64,000 bases of DNA from an uncultured Acidobacteriota bacterium (GCA_963770895.1 CAVYRF010000002.1:96001-160000); one strand, 5' to 3'; positions 19,021-25,457 are shown, counted from the first letter of the stretch. Translations and numbers: made by a program. The notes: generated by a model from the letters alone, not told the origin.

Positions 19021-20484
19021 CTACGCCGGCGCTCCCGGCGCCGGCACAGGCGTCGGCGGCAAGGCCGACCCCGCCAGCATTTCGCGCACTCCGGCCACCA
19101 GGTCCGCCCGCGGCACCGCCCGCTGGCCCGGCCGCTCGGCCAGCCACTCCAGGCGAGCGCCGACTTTCTTGGCCCGCTCGCGGCCGGCCTCCATATCCTT
19201 GAGCGTGACGATGCCGTTTTCCTTTTCGGTCGAGCCGTACAACAACACGATCGGCACGCCGGTCGCGTCGCCGTATTTGATCTGCTTGCCGACGCCCTTT
19301 TCGACCCCCAGGTAGAGCTCGGCCGGAATGCCGGCGCGGCGCAGCTCCCACGTCATCGCCACGCACTCCCCTTCGAGCGCCGGATCGATGCGCGCCACCA
19401 GCACCTGCGCCGTCGCCTTGCGCCCGCCCGCCCGCCCCAGGTGCTGCAGCGCCGCCAGCAACCGGTCGACGCCCACCGAAGCCCCGGTCGCAGGCAGCCG
19501 CTCGCCCAGGAAGCGCATCACCAGGTCGTCGTAGCGGCCGCCGCTCGCCACCGATCCGAACTGCGGCGCGTCCAGCAGCACCGCCTCGAACACCGGTCCG
19601 GTGTAGTACGCCAGGCCGCGGGCGATGCTCACGTCCAGCGCCACCTGGTCGCCGCCGTAGCCCAGACCGTCCAGCTGGCCCGAGATCCGCTCCACCTGGT
19701 CGATCTCGGGTCCCGCCGCCGCCTGCGCGGCGAAGAACGCCCGCAGCTGCGCGATCACCTGCCCGCGGTCGCCGCTCTGGATGGCCAGGAACTCCTCGAT
19801 GCGCGCCACCTGCTCCGCCGCCAGACCGACGCCGCGGATGAAGTCCCCGGATTCGTCGTGGTAGCCGGTCGTCAGCTCTTTCTTGACCTTCTGGATGCCG
19901 ATCTTTTCCAGCTTGTCCAGCACCCGCAGCACGTCCGCGCCGCCCGCGACCGCCACACCGATCGACCCCAGCAGCGCGTTGAGGATGCCGCGGCTGGAAT
20001 AGCGCACCCGAAAGGCGCCCACCTGGAGCGCCGTCAGCGTGTCGCACAACCCGGCGATGATCTCGACGTCCGCCAGCTCGGACTCCACCCCCACCGAGTC
20101 GATGTCGAACTGGATGAACTCGCGGTACCGCCCCTTGTCCGGCTTGTCCGCCCGCCACACCGGCGACACCTGGTACCGCCGGAACGGCCGCGGCAGGTCG
20201 TTGTACTGCGCCACCACCCGGGCCAGCGGCACCGTCAGGTCGAACCGCAGCCCCAGCGCCTCCCCCTCGGGACTTGCCACGGTGAAGATCGACTGCTGCG
20301 CCTCCTGCCCCGCCGACCCCGTCAGCACGTCCATGTACTCGATCGCCGGCGTCACCAGCGGCGTGAACCCATACAGCTCGTACACCCCCCGGATCGTATC
20401 GATCAGCCCCTGGCGGGCCAGCATCGCCTCGCTCCGCAAATCGCGCAACCCACGCGACAGCCGCGGCTCAACAGCTCCCTTCAT
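19021..20484 (-). CDS. hisS: Histidyl-tRNA synthetase, alphaproteobacterial-like type
   Basis: RGLRD, LRFDLTVPLAR, motif 2 WRADKPDKGRYREF, ARGLAYYTG, GGRYDDL. Insert DESGDFIRGVGL and C-terminal W..ERPGQ extension. Confidence 0.97.
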   Translation of the reverse strand: MKGAVEPRLSRGLRDLRSEAMLARQGLIDTIRGVYELYGFTPLVTPAIEYMDVLTGSAGQEAQQSIFTVASPEGEALGLRFDLTVPLARVVAQYNDLPRPFRRYQVSPVWRADKPDKGRYREFIQFDIDSVGVESELADVEIIAGLCDTLTALQVGAFRVRYSSRGILNALLGSIGVAVAGGADVLRVLDKLEKIGIQKVKKELTTGYHDESGDFIRGVGLAAEQVARIEEFLAIQSGDRGQVIAQLRAFFAAQAAAGPEIDQVERISGQLDGLGYGGDQVALDVSIARGLAYYTGPVFEAVLLDAPQFGSVASGGRYDDLVMRFLGERLPATGASVGVDRLLAALQHLGRAGGRKATAQVLVARIDPALEGECVAMTWELRRAGIPAELYLGVEKGVGKQIKYGDATGVPIVLLYGSTEKENGIVTLKDMEAGRERAKKVGARLEWLAERPGQRAVPRADLVAGVREMLAGSALPPTPVPAPGAPA

Positions 20485-20521
20485 CGCTGATTTTCCTTAC
20501 ACCGCCCCAACCCAACGCGAC

Positions 20522-20603
20522 GGCCCGGCCGCGGGGGGACAACAAGCGGGCGACGAGCCTACAAGACCGCCCCACAACGCGCAAGCAAACCGCCGCGCGC
20601 CCC
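20522..20603. repeat. ~80-bp imperfect direct repeat, copy 1 (left of the 20680 gene)
   Basis: ggcccggccgcggg...acaagcgggcg..agcct.caagaccgc...acaacgc matches 21478-21568. Confidence 0.85.
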
Positions 20604-20679
20604 GGCGAACCTGCGAAAATAGGAGGCAGCAGCGCATCCACCGCCGTCCACCCTCGCCCTTTCCCAGGAGGACCGCCCC

Positions 20680-21441
20680 ATGAGCACGAGCAAAACGTTC
20701 GACCTGGCCGGCATCGTGAAGGCCCTGATCGCCGCGACGGACTGGGTCCACGGAGACCTCCGGGGATGGCAACCTGTCCCGCAGGCGGACAAGACCGACC
20801 GGCAGCTCGAGCTGCTGCGCCGGCTGGAGGCGATCAGCTTCGATCTGCCCCGGATTCCGGAGCTCAAGGCCTGGGCTGCGATGAGCGCCGACGAAATCAA
20901 CGCCATCCTCAAGCGCGAGGGCTTCGAGATCAAGCTCTTGCCGTGGCCGATCGACGGACGGAACTTCGGCGTGGTGGCCATCCTGGACGTCACCGTGGAG
21001 TGGATCGAGGCCGGCGACGGCGCCAAGGAGATCCGCCGCCGAACGGCCGACGGCCAATACGACCACACCACACCCGCCTATCCCGCCTTCGAGCTCTCCG
21101 CCCACCAGAACCGCCTGGAGTGCCTCACCGTGTCCGGGAGCGACCAGCCGCTGGTCCGCATCCCGACCAAGTCCGGTGACGTGGTCTGCATTCACGTAAC
21201 CCCGGACGCGGGACTCGACACCTTCGGCCTGTACGACGCCGTGGCCAGGATCTCGGCGGCAGCCAGGCCGGACCCCGACACCTACGCCAAAGTCCTGGAC
21301 GTGACCATCCCAAAGGTGAAGCTCCGCCAGCAGGTGGACATCTCCTGGATGGAGGGCATGCACATCGGCCGCACCGACCCCCAAGGCGACCCGGACCACT
21401 TCGATCTCCAGCGAGTCCTGCAGGGCCTCGACAACGTGTAG
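20680..21441 (+). CDS. Hypothetical protein, possibly a truncated serpin-like fold
   Basis: SD aggagg and coding-like codon usage. VTIPKVKLRQQVDISWMEGM resembles the serpin lPKFkl...dl segment. Confidence 0.75.
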   Translation: MSTSKTFDLAGIVKALIAATDWVHGDLRGWQPVPQADKTDRQLELLRRLEAISFDLPRIPELKAWAAMSADEINAILKREGFEIKLLPWPIDGRNFGVVAILDVTVEWIEAGDGAKEIRRRTADGQYDHTTPAYPAFELSAHQNRLECLTVSGSDQPLVRIPTKSGDVVCIHVTPDAGLDTFGLYDAVARISAAARPDPDTYAKVLDVTIPKVKLRQQVDISWMEGMHIGRTDPQGDPDHFDLQRVLQGLDNV

Positions 21442-21477
21442 CGCCCGCAGCCGACAAGCGGCCACGAACGGGAGCAA

Positions 21478-21568
21478 GGCCCGGCCGCGGGGACACGACA
21501 AGCGGGCGGCCAGCCTGCAAGACCGCTCAACAACGCAACAAGGCGTAAGCAAGCCGCCCGAGCGCCCC
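21478..21568. repeat. ~90-bp imperfect direct repeat, copy 2 (right of the 20680 gene)
   Basis: Matches 20522-20603 with a short insertion. Confidence 0.85.
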
Positions 21569-21618
21569 AGCCCGCAGCCGTCCAGCCGCGGAGCGCGCTC
21601 GAGCCGAAGCACCGGCGC

Positions 21619-22014
21619 TCAGGGCTGCTCTTCGGCGCCACCCTGCAGCAGGAACTCTCGCAGCGCCACGGCATTGTTGCGCTCCGTGTCGCGCGCCGCG
21701 AACACCAGCGTCAGCGTCCGCCCTGCCGCCGCGGCCCGCAGCTGGGCCAAAGCCGCCCTGGCTTCGTCGTGCGTGCGTAGCTCGTCGAAGTAGCGACGCC
21801 GCATCTCTTCCCACAGCTCCGGCCGATGGTGATACCACTCCCGGAGCGCCGTGCTCGGCGCCAGATCGCGCAGCCACAGATCCAGCCGCGCCGCCTCCTT
21901 GGAAACCCCGCGCGGCCACAGCCGGTCCACCAGCACCCGGCACCCATCCTCGGCCGCCGGCGCCTCATAAGCCCGCTTCAGCCGGATCTCGCGAATCTTG
22001 TGCAGGCGCGCCAT
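21619..22014 (-). CDS. DUF488 (YeaO-like) protein
   Basis: LKRAYE...DGCRVLVDRLWPRGVSKE...LAPSTALREWY...NNAVAL. Confidence 0.93.
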   Translation of the reverse strand: MARLHKIREIRLKRAYEAPAAEDGCRVLVDRLWPRGVSKEAARLDLWLRDLAPSTALREWYHHRPELWEEMRRRYFDELRTHDEARAALAQLRAAAAGRTLTLVFAARDTERNNAVALREFLLQGGAEEQP

Positions 22015-22118
22015 AGAACGCTAATTCCTTATGCGAGACGATCGGCGCAAGGTTTGCGCCAGGTCTTTCCACCAATGGTGATCCGACCGCTGCGCTTGGA
22101 GAGCTCCTTGACAGGCCG

Positions 22119-23123
22119 CTAGCTGTTGCGCGCGTCGTGGGAAATAAAGCGATGGTGATAGCCTGACCAATAGGCATCAAAGATTTCAGGGTTTTTCGCT
22201 TTCGATACGATGAAACATGGGCGCGCGCGATTCTCGGGTTGATATCCATTGGGTGTTAGAACCAGAAAAGCCACTCGGTCGTCCTCGGGGTCTACGAATG
22301 TGACCGAGAACGGGACGAAGGTGACTCGCCTGATGGTGAGCTGATCGGGGCCGAAGCCGGCCGCATTGGCCCAGCTATCCAGGGTTTTGAAAAACTGTGT
22401 TGCCACCTTGAGATCCTCTTTGTAGGCACTCTCGCCTGCTACATACGCCCACGTCCTGACCGCGTGCTCATCGGCAAGATTGCATAACATGATATCCACC
22501 CGACGACAACGATCGGGCATCAGGAAGTCGAAAAGAGCGGTCCGCAACTGCTCCTGACGCGCAGGTGTCTCAGTCAGAAAGAAGTGATTCTGCGCAGCGA
22601 CGAAGATATGCCTTCGTGCCCGCGAGAACAAATCAAAGAATGTGTATGGCGTGTCGGCGACTCGCCTGGCAGCAAGCGCCAACGAAGTACGCTCATGATG
22701 ATCTGTTCCAACGAGGTCTTCTGGATGCGCAGCGGACTCGGGAAAACTATTAATCCAACTTGTCAATTTCTTACCGAGCGTATTAGGTAAATCGCTTTTA
22801 TTGTATACGATCGTTCGCTGATCCTTGACATCGAAGAAGAGGTGCGACGGCGACTGTGCCAATGTGATAATCGGCTTCCCCAAGGCTTGAGCGTAGCCGA
22901 CCTCCAATGCCACATTGGGATTCTGCCCGGTTACATCGGCTATGCAGACTGTCGCTTTCCTTACTTCAGCCATCATTTGCTCAGTAATCTGGCCGGCTTT
23001 CGTGATCTCGTCGGCCCAAATACAGTCTGCTTTAGCAACTTTCGCGCGTTTGACAGCCTTTCGGATTGCTTCACGTATTTCTACAAATTCAGACTTGAAG
23101 GGCATTATTACGAAGATGTACAC
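22119..23123 (-). CDS. AT-richer foreign gene: nucleoside 2-deoxyribosyltransferase/TIR-like N-domain plus DUF5919/PLD-like C-domain
   Basis: FVIMPF...ADE...IADVTGQNPNVALEVGYAQALGKP...FDV motif. SD aagagga before GTG 23123. Visibly lower GC than the flanks. Confidence 0.8.
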   Translation of the reverse strand: MYIFVIMPFKSEFVEIREAIRKAVKRAKVAKADCIWADEITKAGQITEQMMAEVRKATVCIADVTGQNPNVALEVGYAQALGKPIITLAQSPSHLFFDVKDQRTIVYNKSDLPNTLGKKLTSWINSFPESAAHPEDLVGTDHHERTSLALAARRVADTPYTFFDLFSRARRHIFVAAQNHFFLTETPARQEQLRTALFDFLMPDRCRRVDIMLCNLADEHAVRTWAYVAGESAYKEDLKVATQFFKTLDSWANAAGFGPDQLTIRRVTFVPFSVTFVDPEDDRVAFLVLTPNGYQPENRARPCFIVSKAKNPEIFDAYWSGYHHRFISHDARNS

Positions 23124-23552
23124 GTAGACGGTCCTCTTACATATGATTGAGGTGCGATGCGATTTGGGGTGGGTTTCTAATAGTCCGCCTTGGCCCTCGG
23201 CGTGCTCTCGCACATTAGCATATTTTACCGGAAGCCGTGATCGCGGTTCTCTCGGGGAGGTTGCCTACTCCAGCGAGCGCCGTGCCTCAACCGCCGCCAT
23301 TCCATCGCGCCCATCCAGGGCCACGCCAGGACCCGGCCGCGGGCGGACCAGGACGCGCTTCCGAATTCGCCGAGGTGACCACGCGCCGCCCAAAATGGGG
23401 AAGCCGAAGGTGACCGCCCGGCCCTCAGACCTCCGAAATGGGGAGCCGGCCTACGACCGCAAGCGGAAGCACGTAGAATCCCGAACGAGGATCAAGCCGC
23501 ATCCGCGACTGCTGACCGTCGCACTAAATTATTTTGATTCAGACACTTAGAA

Positions 23553-23627
23553 TGGCACCGGTGGTTGGATTTGAACCAACGACCCCCTGATCCACAGTCA
23601 GGTGCTCTCCCCCTGAGCTACACCGGC
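23553..23627 (-). tRNA. tRNA-His (GUG), non-canonical acceptor end (no G-1, G1:U72, G73), CCA encoded
   Basis: Folds as GCCGGTG TA GCTC-AGGGGGA-GAGC A CCTGA-CTGTGGA-TCAGG GGGTC GTTGG-TTCAAAT-CCAAC CACCGGT G CCA (75 nt). Confidence 0.97.
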
Positions 23628-23642
23628 GTATGGGAGCGGGGA

Positions 23643-23672
23643 ATCCTACAATAGACGCTCGCCGTCAGTCAA
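23643..23672 (-). promoter_or_regulatory. Sigma70-like promoter of tRNA-His
   Basis: Minus strand TTGACT-18 nt-TAGGAT, ending 15 nt before G1. Confidence 0.6.
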
Positions 23673-23720: not shown

Positions 23721-25220
23721 TTAGCCGAGCTGTGGCAGAACGGGCAGGCCCAGCAGGCGGCGCGCCAGGGGGAGCGGCAGGGTTTGGCCGGTCATCAGGC
23801 GGAACTGGCCCATGGCCTGGCCCAGGAGGACTTCGCGGCCGTCCACGGTGACGGCGCCGAGCGCCGCGGCGGCCACCAGCAGCGGCGTCTGGTCGGCGCC
23901 GTCCCGGCGATAGACCAGGTCGATGACGACCGTGCCGGGCCGCACGGCGGCGACGTCGAAGGGCAGCTCTTCGCCGCGCTCGCCCCGTCCCAGCGGGGTG
24001 GCGTTGACCAGCAGGTCGAAGTCGCACGGCGCCAACTGCGCCAGCGGCAGGCATTCCAGCCCCAGGTGGGCGGCGGCCTGGGCGCCGCGCTCGGGGTCGC
24101 GGTTGAACAGGGTGACGCTGGCGCCGGCGCGGTGCAGGCCGACGGCCGCGGAACGGCCGCCGCCGCCGGCGCCGATCACCGCGGCGGTGCGGCCGGCGAC
24201 GTCGATGCCGCGCTGGCGCAGCGGCTCGACGACGCCCTCGGGGTCGGTGCATTCGGCTTCCCAGACGCCGGCGCGCAGCACCAGGGTGTTGGCGGCGCCG
24301 ATCAGGCCGGCGAGCGGGCTTTCGGCGCCGGCGACGGCCAGGGCGGCGGCCTTGTGGGGGGCGGTGATCGACAGACCCTGGATGGGCAGCCCCAGGGAGT
24401 CCAGGCCGCCCTCCTCGATCACCTCCAGCCAGAAGTCGCCGAAGGCCGGGGCGTCGAAGCCCAGGTAGAGGGCGGGGATGCCCAGTTCCCGGTAGGCGCC
24501 GTTGTGCAGGCGCGGCGACAGCGAATGGGCGACCGGGTGGCCGGCGACGCCGCAGAGCGTGGCGACCGGCGGCAGCGCCGGCAGGCCGTAGTCTTCGCGC
24601 AGCGAGCGGATGGTGGGCTGCCCCGGCGCGACCGGCGCGTCGCCGGCGGCGCCGTAGACGACCGGCGCGCCCAGCCGTGGCGCCAGCAGGCGCGTCCAGG
24701 CGCCCGACGCCCCGGCGGCGAAGGCGATCACGTCCGTACGCTCCAGGCGCTTGAGCAGGGCGAGCGGCGCCAGGTTTTCGCCCGGTTGCCCGGCGGCCGT
24801 GACCAGCTTGTAGAGCGCCGCGTCGGCCTCCGTCAGGCGGCCCAGGCAGGCCTCCAGGGCGTCCACGTCACCGGCCGGGCCGTGCCACGAAATCACCCGC
24901 CGCTCGGGCGGGATGGCTTCCAGGATCTCGGGCCGCAGGTCGCGCGCGCCCTCCAGGTCGAGGCGGTCGTAGCGCGCCGCGGCGTCGAGCAGGCGGCGCT
25001 TGCGGCGTTCGAGCGAGCCCTCGAAGGCGCCCCATTCCGCGCGGCTGCGCAGGGTGTACAGGAGCTTGCCGGGAAACAGGCGGCGCAGCGGCTCGGGATC
25101 GAGGTCGCCGGCCAGGTCGGCGCGCACCTCCAGCCATTGGACCCCTTCCAGGTCAGCCGCCACCGCGGGGGTGAGCGGCGCGCTCAGCGTGGCGACCAGG
25201 GAAGCCTCGGCGGCCGGCAT
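23721..25220 (-). CDS. aroDE: Bifunctional type I 3-dehydroquinate dehydratase / shikimate dehydrogenase
   Basis: LEVRAD, YTLRSRAEWG, ISWH, LYKLV (DHQase I). GHPVAHSLSPRLHN, SITAPHK, GAGGGGR, NATPLG, DLVY (SDH). Confidence 0.9.
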   Translation of the reverse strand: MPAAEASLVATLSAPLTPAVAADLEGVQWLEVRADLAGDLDPEPLRRLFPGKLLYTLRSRAEWGAFEGSLERRKRRLLDAAARYDRLDLEGARDLRPEILEAIPPERRVISWHGPAGDVDALEACLGRLTEADAALYKLVTAAGQPGENLAPLALLKRLERTDVIAFAAGASGAWTRLLAPRLGAPVVYGAAGDAPVAPGQPTIRSLREDYGLPALPPVATLCGVAGHPVAHSLSPRLHNGAYRELGIPALYLGFDAPAFGDFWLEVIEEGGLDSLGLPIQGLSITAPHKAAALAVAGAESPLAGLIGAANTLVLRAGVWEAECTDPEGVVEPLRQRGIDVAGRTAAVIGAGGGGRSAAVGLHRAGASVTLFNRDPERGAQAAAHLGLECLPLAQLAPCDFDLLVNATPLGRGERGEELPFDVAAVRPGTVVIDLVYRRDGADQTPLLVAAAALGAVTVDGREVLLGQAMGQFRLMTGQTLPLPLARRLLGLPVLPQLG

Positions 25221-25457
25221 GGCGCAAGGATACCGGAAGCGCCGCCCTTCCCCGTCTTCGTCACACAGCCGGCGCTTCCACTGCACAACGGACCGTGCAA
25301 GAATGATCTTGTAGCCAGGTGACGGGCAGGGGCCCGCCAAAGCGGCGGTGATCCTTGCTTTGCCGAGCCACCGGCGAGTCGCCTTCGACCAGAAACCGAC
25401 AGATCTCGGCGTTTTCGGGATTGCGCTCGATAACTAGCAGCGTTCTTGGCCTTCGCT

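What the first reader, a model, noticed from the sequence alone, without database searches (positions are those of the whole stretch)
19021..23628. Candidate new orthogonal His decoding pair: G-1-less tRNA-His with a G73 discriminator next to an alphaproteobacterial-type HisRS
Seen: the tRNA-His(GUG) gene has acceptor stem GCCGGTG/CACCGGT (G1:U72), discriminator G73 and encoded CCA. The base at -1 is C, not G. It has its own promoter and intact arms. hisS lies 3 kb downstream on the same strand. Established: almost all tRNA-His use G-1, paired with C73 in bacteria, as the main HisRS identity element. The known bacterial exception is a clade of Alphaproteobacteria (Caulobacter, Rhizobiales) whose tRNA-His lacks G-1, has G1:U72 and A73, and is read by a divergent HisRS (Wang, Sobral & Williams 2007; Yuan et al. 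2011). From memory, this HisRS shares that clade's hallmarks: the LDKL...DESGDF..G.GL insert and the C-terminal W...RP.Q extension. Its motif-2 loop, RADKPDKGR, differs from both E. coli-type RHERPQKGR and alphaproteobacterial RNEKPGPGR. Inference: a non-alphaproteobacterial lineage uses a third identity solution, either G73 without a -1 base or an inverted C-1:G73 pair, with a co-adapted synthetase. It could be useful as an orthogonal pair.
Basis: partly seen in the sequence, partly recalled or inferred. Interest (0 to 1): 0.9.

Follow-up and report, generated by a model that had tools for sequence, protein, structure and literature searches.

The report
G-1-less tRNA-His pair outside Alphaproteobacteria
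A soil acidobacterium decodes histidine with the unusual tRNA and synthetase pair so far described only in some Alphaproteobacteria, and its odd G73 base looks like a tolerated drift variant, not a new recognition system.

Summary
tRNA-His(GUG) at 23553-23627 (-) has G1:U72, G73, an encoded CCA and C at -1. The genome's only HisRS lies 3 kb downstream.

The organism is a Thermoanaerobaculia-like acidobacterium. Its HisRS belongs to the G-1-independent class known from Alphaproteobacteria: same motif-2 loop type, same insert, same C-terminal extension, and a clade split at 100 SH-aLRT.

The claim of a third identity solution with a co-adapted synthetase is not supported.
- The RADKPDKGR loop also occurs in relatives whose tRNA-His has A73.
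- No HisRS column separates 13 G73 enzymes from 9 A73 enzymes.
- G73 arose at least twice (AU test p = 0.0099).
- Two relatives carry tRNAs identical except at position 73.
- C at -1 precedes 8 of 11 G73 tRNAs of all kinds in this genome, and one G73 genus has G at -1.
- Published Caulobacter kinetics show that position 73 is read only weakly.

The larger result is that this pair occurs under about eleven phylum labels, often with tRNA-His directly upstream of hisS. Among 41 relatives, 26 have it, 15 have the canonical pair and none has both, even within one genus. In this genome the canonical tRNA-His is cleanly missing from a conserved Pro-Arg-His-Arg operon. I found no paper reporting this.

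The parts
23553..23627 (-). tRNA-His(GUG), 75 nt: G1:U72, C3:G70, G37, G73, encoded CCA, 7-nt D-loop. The base at -1 (23628) is C.
23643..23672 (-). Sigma-70-like promoter TTGACT-18-TAGGAT. Its -10 element ends 15 nt before tRNA position +1.
   Evidence: 1 site found, 0.6 +/- 0.8 in shuffles. The motif stands upstream of tRNA-His in 15 of 15 related loci.
19021..20484 (-). hisS, 487 aa. It is a G-1-independent (class 3) histidyl-tRNA synthetase and the only HisRS in the genome.
20128..20154 (-). HisRS motif-2 loop RADKPDKGR (residues 111-119). Asp stands where canonical enzymes have the Gln that reads C73.
   Evidence: The role of that Gln is taken from the PMC3937112 passage read.
19819..19920 (-). 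Class-3 insert LDKLEKIG...DESGDF..GVGL (residues 189-222).
19096..19152 (-). Class-3 C-terminal extension LEWLAERPGQ..VPRADLV (residues 445-463).
20497..23213 (-). About 3 kb lying between tRNA-His and hisS. It holds three ORFs: 22119-23213 (weak Nuc_deoxyrib_tr match), 21619-22014 (DUF488) and 20497-21612 (no family). Relatives have tRNA-His 12-300 nt upstream of hisS instead.
23721..25340 (-). aroD/aroE-type fusion gene. It is the conserved upstream neighbour of tRNA-His in family relatives.

Best explanation
This is the known G-1-independent histidine pair in a new host. That pair is the 'delta-G-1' HisRS/tRNA-His first described in the Rhizobiales-Rhodobacterales-Caulobacterales group of Alphaproteobacteria. 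Here it sits in a Thermoanaerobaculia-like acidobacterium.

Inferred mechanism. The tRNA is transcribed from its own promoter. RNase P cuts it at +1, as for any other tRNA, so the mature 5' end is G1 with no extra base. HisRS recognises it mainly through the GUG anticodon and the G1:U72 end of the acceptor stem. The discriminator is read only weakly. This is by homology to the Caulobacter enzyme.

G73. It is an A-to-G change at that weakly read position. It arose more than once in one family without any matching change in the synthetase.

History. The pair replaced the canonical G-1:C73 tRNA-His and canonical HisRS, which sister species of the same genus still have.

Shown here: the sequence features, class membership, lack of covariation, polyphyly of G73, the mutually exclusive distribution, and the gap in the tRNA operon. 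Inferred: the cleavage site, the identity elements, near-neutrality of G73, and transfer as a tRNA-hisS cassette.
For: 1. Class membership. HisRS splits into canonical versus the rest at 100 SH-aLRT. The window's enzyme lies in a 68-row clade (100) that also holds 8 rows from an alphaproteobacterial class sample. These share the WRxxKPxxGR loop, the DESGDF insert and the EW..RP.Q..VPR extension. It is only 24-28% identical to the canonical HisRS of E. coli and of same-order genomes.

2. tRNA features of the known group. No G-1, G1:U72, C3:G70 and G37 are all met (group definition from PMC3064791).

3. No alternative system. There is one HisRS. There is no Thg1 (the genome is 94.95% complete). 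No canonical tRNA-His was found.

4. No co-adaptation.
- Loop DKGR occurs with A73 (G014, G025, G027) and with G73. Loop GPGR also occurs with both.
- 0 alignment columns have disjoint residues between 13 G73 and 9 A73 enzymes. The best column (residue 440, in the anticodon-binding domain) follows phylogeny.
- G012 and G015 carry tRNA-His identical except at position 73.

5. G73 arose repeatedly.
- The tree needs 3 changes among 39 rows and 3 among 27 on the careful tree.
- G012 (G73) is sister to G024 (A73) at 100/98.
- The AU test rejects a single G73 clade, p = 0.0099 (the group was named after the tree was seen).
- A WOR-3 MAG also has G73.

6. C at -1 is not special to tRNA-His.
- 8 of 11 CCA-encoding G73 tRNAs in this genome have C at -1.
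- 22 of 42 CCA-encoding tRNAs have a Watson-Crick-complementary -1:73.
- Genus g2 has G at -1 with G73.

7. Biochemistry of the studied member. For Caulobacter HisRS, A73C costs 3-fold, +G-1 costs 5-fold, U72C costs 91-fold and anticodon changes cost 91-1000-fold (PMC3064791, passages read).

8. Replacement.
- Of 41 relatives, 26 have class 3, 15 are canonical and 0 have both.
- Same-genus G002 and G009 have the canonical pair, with tRNA-His inside a Pro(TGG)-Arg(TCT)-His-Arg(CCG) operon.
- The own genome has that operon at contig C2:2223834-2224140. Its flanking tRNA genes align almost without a mismatch, and only 23 nt lie where tRNA-His should be.
Against: - No experiment bears on this organism. 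The mature 5' end and the charging rules are inferred from a 35-46% identical alphaproteobacterial class and from one studied enzyme.
- Two defining tRNA features of the alphaproteobacterial group are not met. A73 is G73, and the 9-nt D-loop with U20a is a 7-nt D-loop. Recognition may therefore differ in detail.
- G73 co-occurs with the 7-nt D-loop in 11 of 11 G73 relatives. Only 1 of 9 A73 relatives (G015) has the 7-nt D-loop. This could be compensation rather than shared descent.
- C at -1 accompanies G73 in 9 of 11 genomes. A C-1:G73 pair could shift RNase P cleavage, as G-1:C73 does in E. coli.
- Both states are stable within genera. That fits neutrality but also fits weak selection.
- The published test was A73C, not A73G.
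- Relatives are not independent, and most are MAGs.
Confidence: 0.72

Rival explanations
1. G73 is a positively read identity element, and this HisRS has co-adapted to it. That would make a third bacterial solution for histidine identity.
For: - G73 is fixed in several genera: 11 of the 20 relatives in which this type of tRNA-His was recovered.
- It co-occurs with a shortened 7-nt D-loop.
- The motif-2 position that reads C73 in canonical enzymes is Asp here, not the Gly of alphaproteobacterial rows.
Against: - The same loop occurs with A73.
- No column separates the two groups.
- G73 is polyphyletic.
- The G012 and G015 tRNAs differ only at position 73.
- Position 73 is a weak element in the studied homologue.
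Confidence: 0.1
2. An inverted C-1:G73 pair makes RNase P cut one base early. The mature tRNA then carries an 8-bp acceptor stem with a 5' C-1, a mirror image of the canonical G-1:C73.
For: - C at -1 occurs in 9 of 11 G73 genomes.
- In E. coli it is the -1:73 pairing that shifts cleavage (PMC3064791 introduction and discussion).
Against: - 7 of the 10 other G73 tRNAs of this genome (Trp, Asp, Gln, Ser, SeC) also have C at -1. The pairing is therefore a genome-wide habit, not a tRNA-His signal.
- Genus g2 has G at -1 with G73. A73 relatives have G or T at -1.
- The Caulobacter enzyme is slightly hindered by an extra 5' base (5-fold).
Confidence: 0.05
3. HisRS does not read G73, but G73 is selected for another reason. 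It could be an anti-determinant against another synthetase, or it could compensate the shortened D-loop during processing, CCA repair or EF-Tu binding.
For: - The G73 state is stable within genera.
- G73 correlates with the 7-nt D-loop: 11 of 11 G73 relatives, against 1 of 9 A73 relatives.
Against: - G015 has the 7-nt D-loop with A73. The WOR-3 tRNA has G73 with a 10-nt D-loop.
- G73 is the discriminator of Asp, Asn, Gln, Ser and Trp tRNAs here. It would add rather than remove overlap with those identity sets.
Confidence: 0.1
4. Artefact: a sequencing error, a pseudogene, or an uncharged extra tRNA beside a canonical system.
For: ARAGORN lists a second 'tRNA-His' at contig C2:4578857.
Against: - That second element has a 5-bp stem closing a GTG triloop (C33), no CCA, and C at -1 with G73. 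It sits in tandem with a degenerate tRNA-like copy. It is not a canonical tRNA-His.
- G73 is conserved in 10 other genomes.
- There is only one HisRS.
- Contigs agree at both tRNA ends.
Confidence: 0.01

Closest known systems
G-1-independent ('delta-G-1') HisRS/tRNA-His pair of Rhizobiales-Rhodobacterales-Caulobacterales-type Alphaproteobacteria and most SAR11. Sources: Wang, Sobral & Williams 2007 and Ardell & Andersson 2006 (both recalled, not held); Yuan et al. 2011, PMC3064791 (passages read).
   Same: - No encoded G-1, G1:U72, C3:G70, G37.
- HisRS motif-2 loop has lost the C73-reading Gln.
- Same insert and same C-terminal extension.
- Same HisRS clade.
- No Thg1.
   Different: - The host is an acidobacterium, not an alphaproteobacterium.
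- The discriminator is G73, not A73.
- The D-loop is 7 nt without U20a, not 9 nt.
- The loop residue is Asp, not Gly.
- In many non-alphaproteobacterial genomes tRNA-His sits directly upstream of hisS (42 of 82 loci).
Canonical bacterial tRNA-His (encoded G-1 paired with C73, kept by RNase P) with canonical HisRS (E. coli, T. thermophilus).
   Same: Same amino acid, anticodon and enzyme superfamily (TIGR00442, PF13393 and PF03129).
   Different: - No G-1, no C73, U72 instead of C72.
- HisRS is only 24-28% identical.
- It lacks the ERPQxGR loop and carries an extra insert and tail.
- The canonical pair is present in sister species but missing here.
G-1-independent HisRS of some protists (Trypanosoma brucei, Acanthamoeba castellanii). 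Source: PMC4338351 (listing and abstract seen) and the review PMC9976931 (passage read).
   Same: tRNA-His without G-1, no Thg1, and a non-canonical HisRS.
   Different: - Eukaryotic lineage and an independent loss.
- The nearest solved structures (cyanobacterial, human, Trypanosoma HisRS) match the window enzyme at only 127-200 bits.
- No solved structure of the bacterial class 3 was found.
Thg1-dependent G-1 addition opposite A73 (eukaryotes, some archaea).
   Same: A purine discriminator and no encoded G-1.
   Different: No Thg1 (PF04446) match in the genome.

Membership tests
Delta-G-1 (alphaproteobacterial-type) HisRS/tRNA-His pair | tRNA-His gene without G at -1 | tested here: met
   The base at -1 is C.
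Delta-G-1 (alphaproteobacterial-type) HisRS/tRNA-His pair | G1:U72 and C3:G70 in the acceptor stem | tested here: met
   GCCGGTG pairs with CACCGGT.
Delta-G-1 (alphaproteobacterial-type) HisRS/tRNA-His pair | A73 discriminator | tested here: not met
   It is G73 here and in 10 relatives. It is A73 in 9 other relatives and in all other class-3 loci except one WOR-3 MAG.
Delta-G-1 (alphaproteobacterial-type) HisRS/tRNA-His pair | 9-nt D-loop with U20a | tested here: not met
   The D-loop is the 7-nt AGGGGGA.
Delta-G-1 (alphaproteobacterial-type) HisRS/tRNA-His pair | HisRS motif-2 loop has lost the Gln that reads C73 | tested here: met
   RADKP-D-KGR here, against ERP-Q-xGR in canonical enzymes. 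Alphaproteobacterial rows have Gly at that position.
Delta-G-1 (alphaproteobacterial-type) HisRS/tRNA-His pair | Class-specific insert and C-terminal extension in HisRS | tested here: met
   Alignments.
Delta-G-1 (alphaproteobacterial-type) HisRS/tRNA-His pair | HisRS groups with the alphaproteobacterial delta-G-1 enzymes and apart from canonical ones | tested here: met
   68-row clade at 100 SH-aLRT, quick LG+G4 tree of 84 rows. Long branches join at the root, so the root itself is unsure.
Delta-G-1 (alphaproteobacterial-type) HisRS/tRNA-His pair | Charging independent of G-1 and dependent on anticodon and U72 | not testable with these tools
   Known only for Caulobacter (PMC3064791).
Canonical bacterial histidine identity | Encoded G-1 paired with C73 | tested here: not met
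   C at -1 with G73. No CCA-encoding tRNA in the genome has C73.
Canonical bacterial histidine identity | Canonical HisRS (about 430-484 bits against TIGR00442, ERPQxGR loop) | tested here: not met
   The window enzyme scores 338.7 bits, and no second HisRS is found.
Thg1-dependent G-1 addition | Thg1 or Thg1-like gene present | tested here: not met
   PF04446 gives no match in the genome, which is 94.95% complete.

The most novel reading that the evidence does not exclude
The G-1-independent tRNA-His/HisRS pair is not a one-off alphaproteobacterial trait. It is a two-gene identity cassette (promoter, tRNA-His, hisS) that moves between phyla. It has displaced the canonical G-1:C73 system again and again, down to species of a single genus, each time with loss of the canonical tRNA-His from its operon. 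Because this enzyme barely reads position 73, the discriminator then drifts (A73 to G73 at least twice). Where the acceptor end does change in a strongly read position, the motif-2 loop changes with it: a Phycisphaerae subclade has C72 together with a 2-residue loop insertion.
Probability: 0.55. Interest if true: 0.65.

Novelty: new variant of a known kind. Interest (0 to 1): 0.5.

Why it matters
G-1 on tRNA-His is treated as a nearly universal identity mark. Its loss in bacteria is described as a single event that marks one alphaproteobacterial clade (PMC3937112 and the 2023 review PMC9976931, passages read). It is even used there as a phylogenetic character.

These data change that picture in three ways.
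- The same system appears under about eleven phylum labels.
- It is physically linked to its tRNA.
- It swaps with the canonical system inside one genus.

That makes replacement of a tRNA identity rule a recurrent, transferable event, and it weakens the trait's use as a clade marker.

The natural A73/G73 and U72/C72 variants, with their own enzymes, are ready-made material for mapping how this HisRS class reads the acceptor end. They also widen the set of HisRS/tRNA-His pairs that may be orthogonal in E. coli. The specific G73 claim is minor.

Tried and rejected
- Second tRNA-His. ARAGORN's second hit (contig C2:4578857-4578930) was examined and rejected as a decoder.
- Covariation. The search over the whole HisRS alignment found none.
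- Empty cassette site. In four canonical genomes (G002, G009, G016, G017) the aroD/aroE orthologue is present and no tRNA lies within 6 kb. The downstream genes are not syntenic, so no clean empty site could be defined.
- WOR-3 MAG G042. It has both a canonical-scoring (448.7 bits) and a class-3 (388.3 bits) HisRS. Only the class-3-linked tRNA-His was seen among the 30 of 37 tRNA matches inspected. Whether this is coexistence or a binning artefact is not resolved.
- Expression. No RNA holder is listed for the tRNA stretch, so the 5' end could not be mapped.
- Literature. Searches found no report of this system in non-alphaproteobacterial bacteria. Among the 8 papers from 2015 onward that hold the phrase 'universal tRNA feature', none does by title or abstract. 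Wang 2007 and Ardell & Andersson 2006 are not held, so what they say about other phyla was not checked.
- Supplements were not opened. Supplementary figures of PMC5389517 (8/4 tRNA-His) and Figure S1 of PMC3937112 could bear on the distribution claim.
- Structure prediction, complex prediction and the large protein searches were not used.

Full report
WHAT IS THERE

The window holds one tRNA gene, tRNA-His(GTG), at 23553-23627 on the minus strand (ARAGORN; Rfam tRNA 69.2 bits). Read 5' to 3' it is atac|GCCGGTG-TA-GCTC...CACCGGT-G-CCA|ttct. That is a 7-bp acceptor stem with G1:U72, discriminator G73, an encoded CCA, and C at -1. It lacks the extra 5' G that canonical bacterial tRNA-His genes carry.

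hisS is 19021-20484 (-), 487 aa. It scores 338.7 bits against TIGR00442 (cut-off 286.75) and matches PF13393 and PF03129.

THE GENOME

The genome (G000) has 8.16 Mb in 3 contigs, 70.8% G+C and 94.95% completeness.
- It has a single HisRS (tblastn; family search).
- It has no Thg1 (PF04446).
- No canonical tRNA-His was found.

ARAGORN's second 'tRNA-His' (contig C2:4578857) is one of two tandem tRNA-like elements. Its anticodon arm is a 5-bp stem closing a GTG triloop, and it has no CCA. It is not a canonical decoder.

WHO IT IS

The closest HisRS (71-76% identity) are in MAGs labelled Thermoanaerobaculia or Acidobacteriota. Next (57-62%) come Phycisphaerae and other Planctomycetota. Then (43-53%) come Zixibacteria, Nitrospirota, WOR-3, Coatesbacteria, Cloacimonadota, Ignavibacteriota, Edwardsbacteria, Deferrimicrobium and one Chitinophagales-labelled MAG. 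These are the depositors' labels. The lineage is therefore not alphaproteobacterial.

WHICH HisRS CLASS

Alignment separates three classes.
- Canonical: FR[YH]ERPQxGR loop, no insert. This includes E. coli K-12 and several genomes of the window's own order.
- Class 2: YRGERPQxGR, a short insert and a QCD motif.
- Class 3: WRxxKPxxGR loop, a long insert ending ...DESGDF..G.GL, and a C-terminal EW..RP.Q..VPR extension.

The window's enzyme is class 3. So are eight rows from a sample of the alphaproteobacterial class.

On a quick LG+G4 tree of 84 rows, canonical enzymes split off at 100 SH-aLRT and class 3 forms a 68-row clade at 100. The Thermoanaerobaculia enzymes (98) are sister to the Phycisphaerae ones (99). 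Long branches meet at the root, so I make no claim about the origin of the class.

The nearest solved structures are cyanobacterial, human and Trypanosoma HisRS at 127-200 bits. E. coli and Thermus enzymes reach only 86-89 bits.

IS G73 A NEW, CO-ADAPTED IDENTITY ELEMENT?

In 41 genomes of the window's order, including its own, this type of tRNA-His was recovered in 20.
- G73 in 11: genera g1, g2, g3, g4 and g10 of family f1.
- A73 in 9: g5, g6 and g7 of f1, and families f2, f4, f7 and f11.

Evidence against co-adaptation:
- The window's RADKPDKGR loop recurs in the A73 genomes G014, G025 and G027. The RADKPGPGR loop occurs with G73 (G010, G018, G020) and with A73 (G013, G015, G023).
- Over the whole alignment, no column has disjoint residues between 13 G73 and 9 A73 enzymes. 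The best classifier (residue 440, anticodon-binding domain) tracks phylogeny.
- G73 needs 3 changes on both trees (39 and 27 rows with known position 73).
- G012 (G73) is sister to G024 (A73) at 100/98 on a careful LG+C20 tree.
- An AU test rejects one G73 clade (p = 0.0099, log-likelihood difference 47.6). I named the group after seeing the tree.
- The tRNAs of G012 and G015 are identical except at position 73.
- A WOR-3 MAG has G73 independently.
- For the one studied enzyme of this class (Caulobacter), A73C costs 3-fold and an added G-1 costs 5-fold. U72C costs 91-fold and anticodon changes cost 91-1000-fold (PMC3064791, passages read).

A purine swap at a weakly read position is the economical reading.

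One caveat: G73 goes with a 7-nt D-loop in 11 of 11 G73 relatives, whereas 8 of 9 A73 relatives have longer loops. I cannot tell compensation from shared descent.

IS C AT -1 MEANINGFUL?

In this genome 8 of the 11 CCA-encoding tRNAs with G73 (Trp, Asp, Gln, SeC, three Ser, and His) have C at -1. Overall 22 of 42 CCA-encoding tRNAs have a complementary -1:73. Genus g2 combines G73 with G at -1. A73 relatives have G (family f1) or T (other families) at -1. The inverted-pair idea therefore has no specific support, though only 5'-end mapping can close it.

THE WIDER PATTERN

Linkage.
- In 42 of 82 class-3 hisS loci with enough upstream sequence, tRNA-His(GUG) lies 400 nt or less (mostly 12-150 nt) upstream on the same strand. 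It lies farther in 2 and is not seen in 38. Four loci were dropped for lack of flank, and a few loci are duplicates of one genome.
- None of 5 canonical hisS loci has a tRNA in its flanks.
- A TTGAC-N17-19-TAnnnT promoter motif precedes the tRNA in 15 of 15 Thermoanaerobaculia loci listed. In the window it is at 23672-23643.
- In family relatives the order is aroD/aroE fusion, tRNA-His, hisS.
- In the window about 3 kb with three unrelated ORFs lies between the tRNA and hisS.

Distribution.
- Of the 41 relatives, 26 have class 3 (one of them split), 15 have a canonical HisRS (391-484 bits) and none has both.
- The split runs through genus g1. The own genome and 7 others are class 3; G002 and G009 are canonical. 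It also runs through g4.
- A canonical tRNA-His (g-1, GTGAG[CT]G...C73-CCA) was verified in 9 of the 15 canonical genomes. The other 6 were not examined.
- In 6 of 6 loci examined with flanks, it sits in a Pro(TGG)-Arg(TCT)-His-Arg(CCG) operon.
- The own genome has this operon at C2:2223834-2224140. The Pro and Arg genes align almost without a mismatch to G009 and G002, and only 23 nt lie where tRNA-His should be.
- In a phylum sample of 301 genomes, 24 match at E <= 1e-80. Of these, 13 are confirmed class 3, 7 are class-2-like and 4 were not inspected. All 9 adjacent tRNA-His found there have A73.

Together with the inter-phylum sister relation, this suggests transfer of the pair followed by loss of the canonical one. 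Differential loss from a long-lived double state is not excluded.

LITERATURE

Papers I could read describe the G-1-less system as confined to some Alphaproteobacteria and as having likely arisen once: PMC3064791, PMC3937112, PMC5370408, PMC5389517, and the 2023 review PMC9976931 (passages read). Six searches found no report from other bacterial phyla. 'Not in print' is therefore provisional.

VERDICT

The pair is a new variant of a known kind (new phylum, G73, short D-loop). The co-adaptation claim is not supported. The interest lies in the distribution and the replacement pattern.

Claims that rest on unpublished genomes: the Pelagibacterales row (L050, from G041), and the use of G041 as the centre of the alphaproteobacterial class sample.

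Noticed in passing
Genome contig C2:4578857-4579014 (locus L053 6858-7014), outside the window: Two tandem tRNA-like elements score 51.4 and 54.8 bits against Rfam tRNA and share an identical T-arm. The first has an 8-bp acceptor stem, a GTG triloop and no CCA. The second has a GAT anticodon loop and a degenerate acceptor stem. They recall the 'polycistrons of irregular tRNAs' reported from acidobacteria (PMC5389517, passages read).
   Followed up: partly
Loci L017-L026 (Phycisphaerae/Planctomycetota MAGs): A subclade of class-3 HisRS has a 2-residue insertion in the motif-2 loop (RCDNPYEKRGR, 10 of 10 rows). All 4 linked tRNA-His have G1:C72 instead of G1:U72. Three neighbouring rows with RAD[KR]PDRGR keep U72. 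U72 is the strongly read acceptor element in Caulobacter, so this looks like real enzyme-tRNA co-evolution.
   Followed up: partly
Genome G042 (WOR-3 MAG; loci L029, L211): It has both a canonical-scoring HisRS (448.7 bits) and a class-3 HisRS (388.3 bits). Only one tRNA-His was found among 30 of 37 tRNA matches inspected. That tRNA has G1:U72, G73, T at -1 and no CCA, and lies next to the class-3 gene. This is either coexistence of two systems or a binning artefact.
   Followed up: partly
Window 20497-23213 (-): Three ORFs lie between tRNA-His and hisS and have no counterpart in relatives' loci. One has a weak nucleoside 2-deoxyribosyltransferase-like match (31.7 bits), one is DUF488 (inactive N3 subclade, 129.9 bits), and the 371-aa one has no Pfam family.
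   Followed up: partly
Loci L170-L176 (other Acidobacteriota) and L144-L154 (alphaproteobacterial class sample): A third HisRS class has a WRADRPARGR or YRGERPQxGR loop, a QCD motif and a short insert. It is 32-45% identical to the window's enzyme. Its tRNA-His type was not examined.
   Followed up: no
Whole genome G000: Only 42 of 69 predicted tRNA genes encode CCA. None of those has C73. In half of them (22 of 42) the base at -1 is complementary to position 73.
   Followed up: no
Locus L160 (G164, same class): Two tandem class-3-type tRNA-His genes (both A73 with T at -1) stand upstream of hisS.
   Followed up: no
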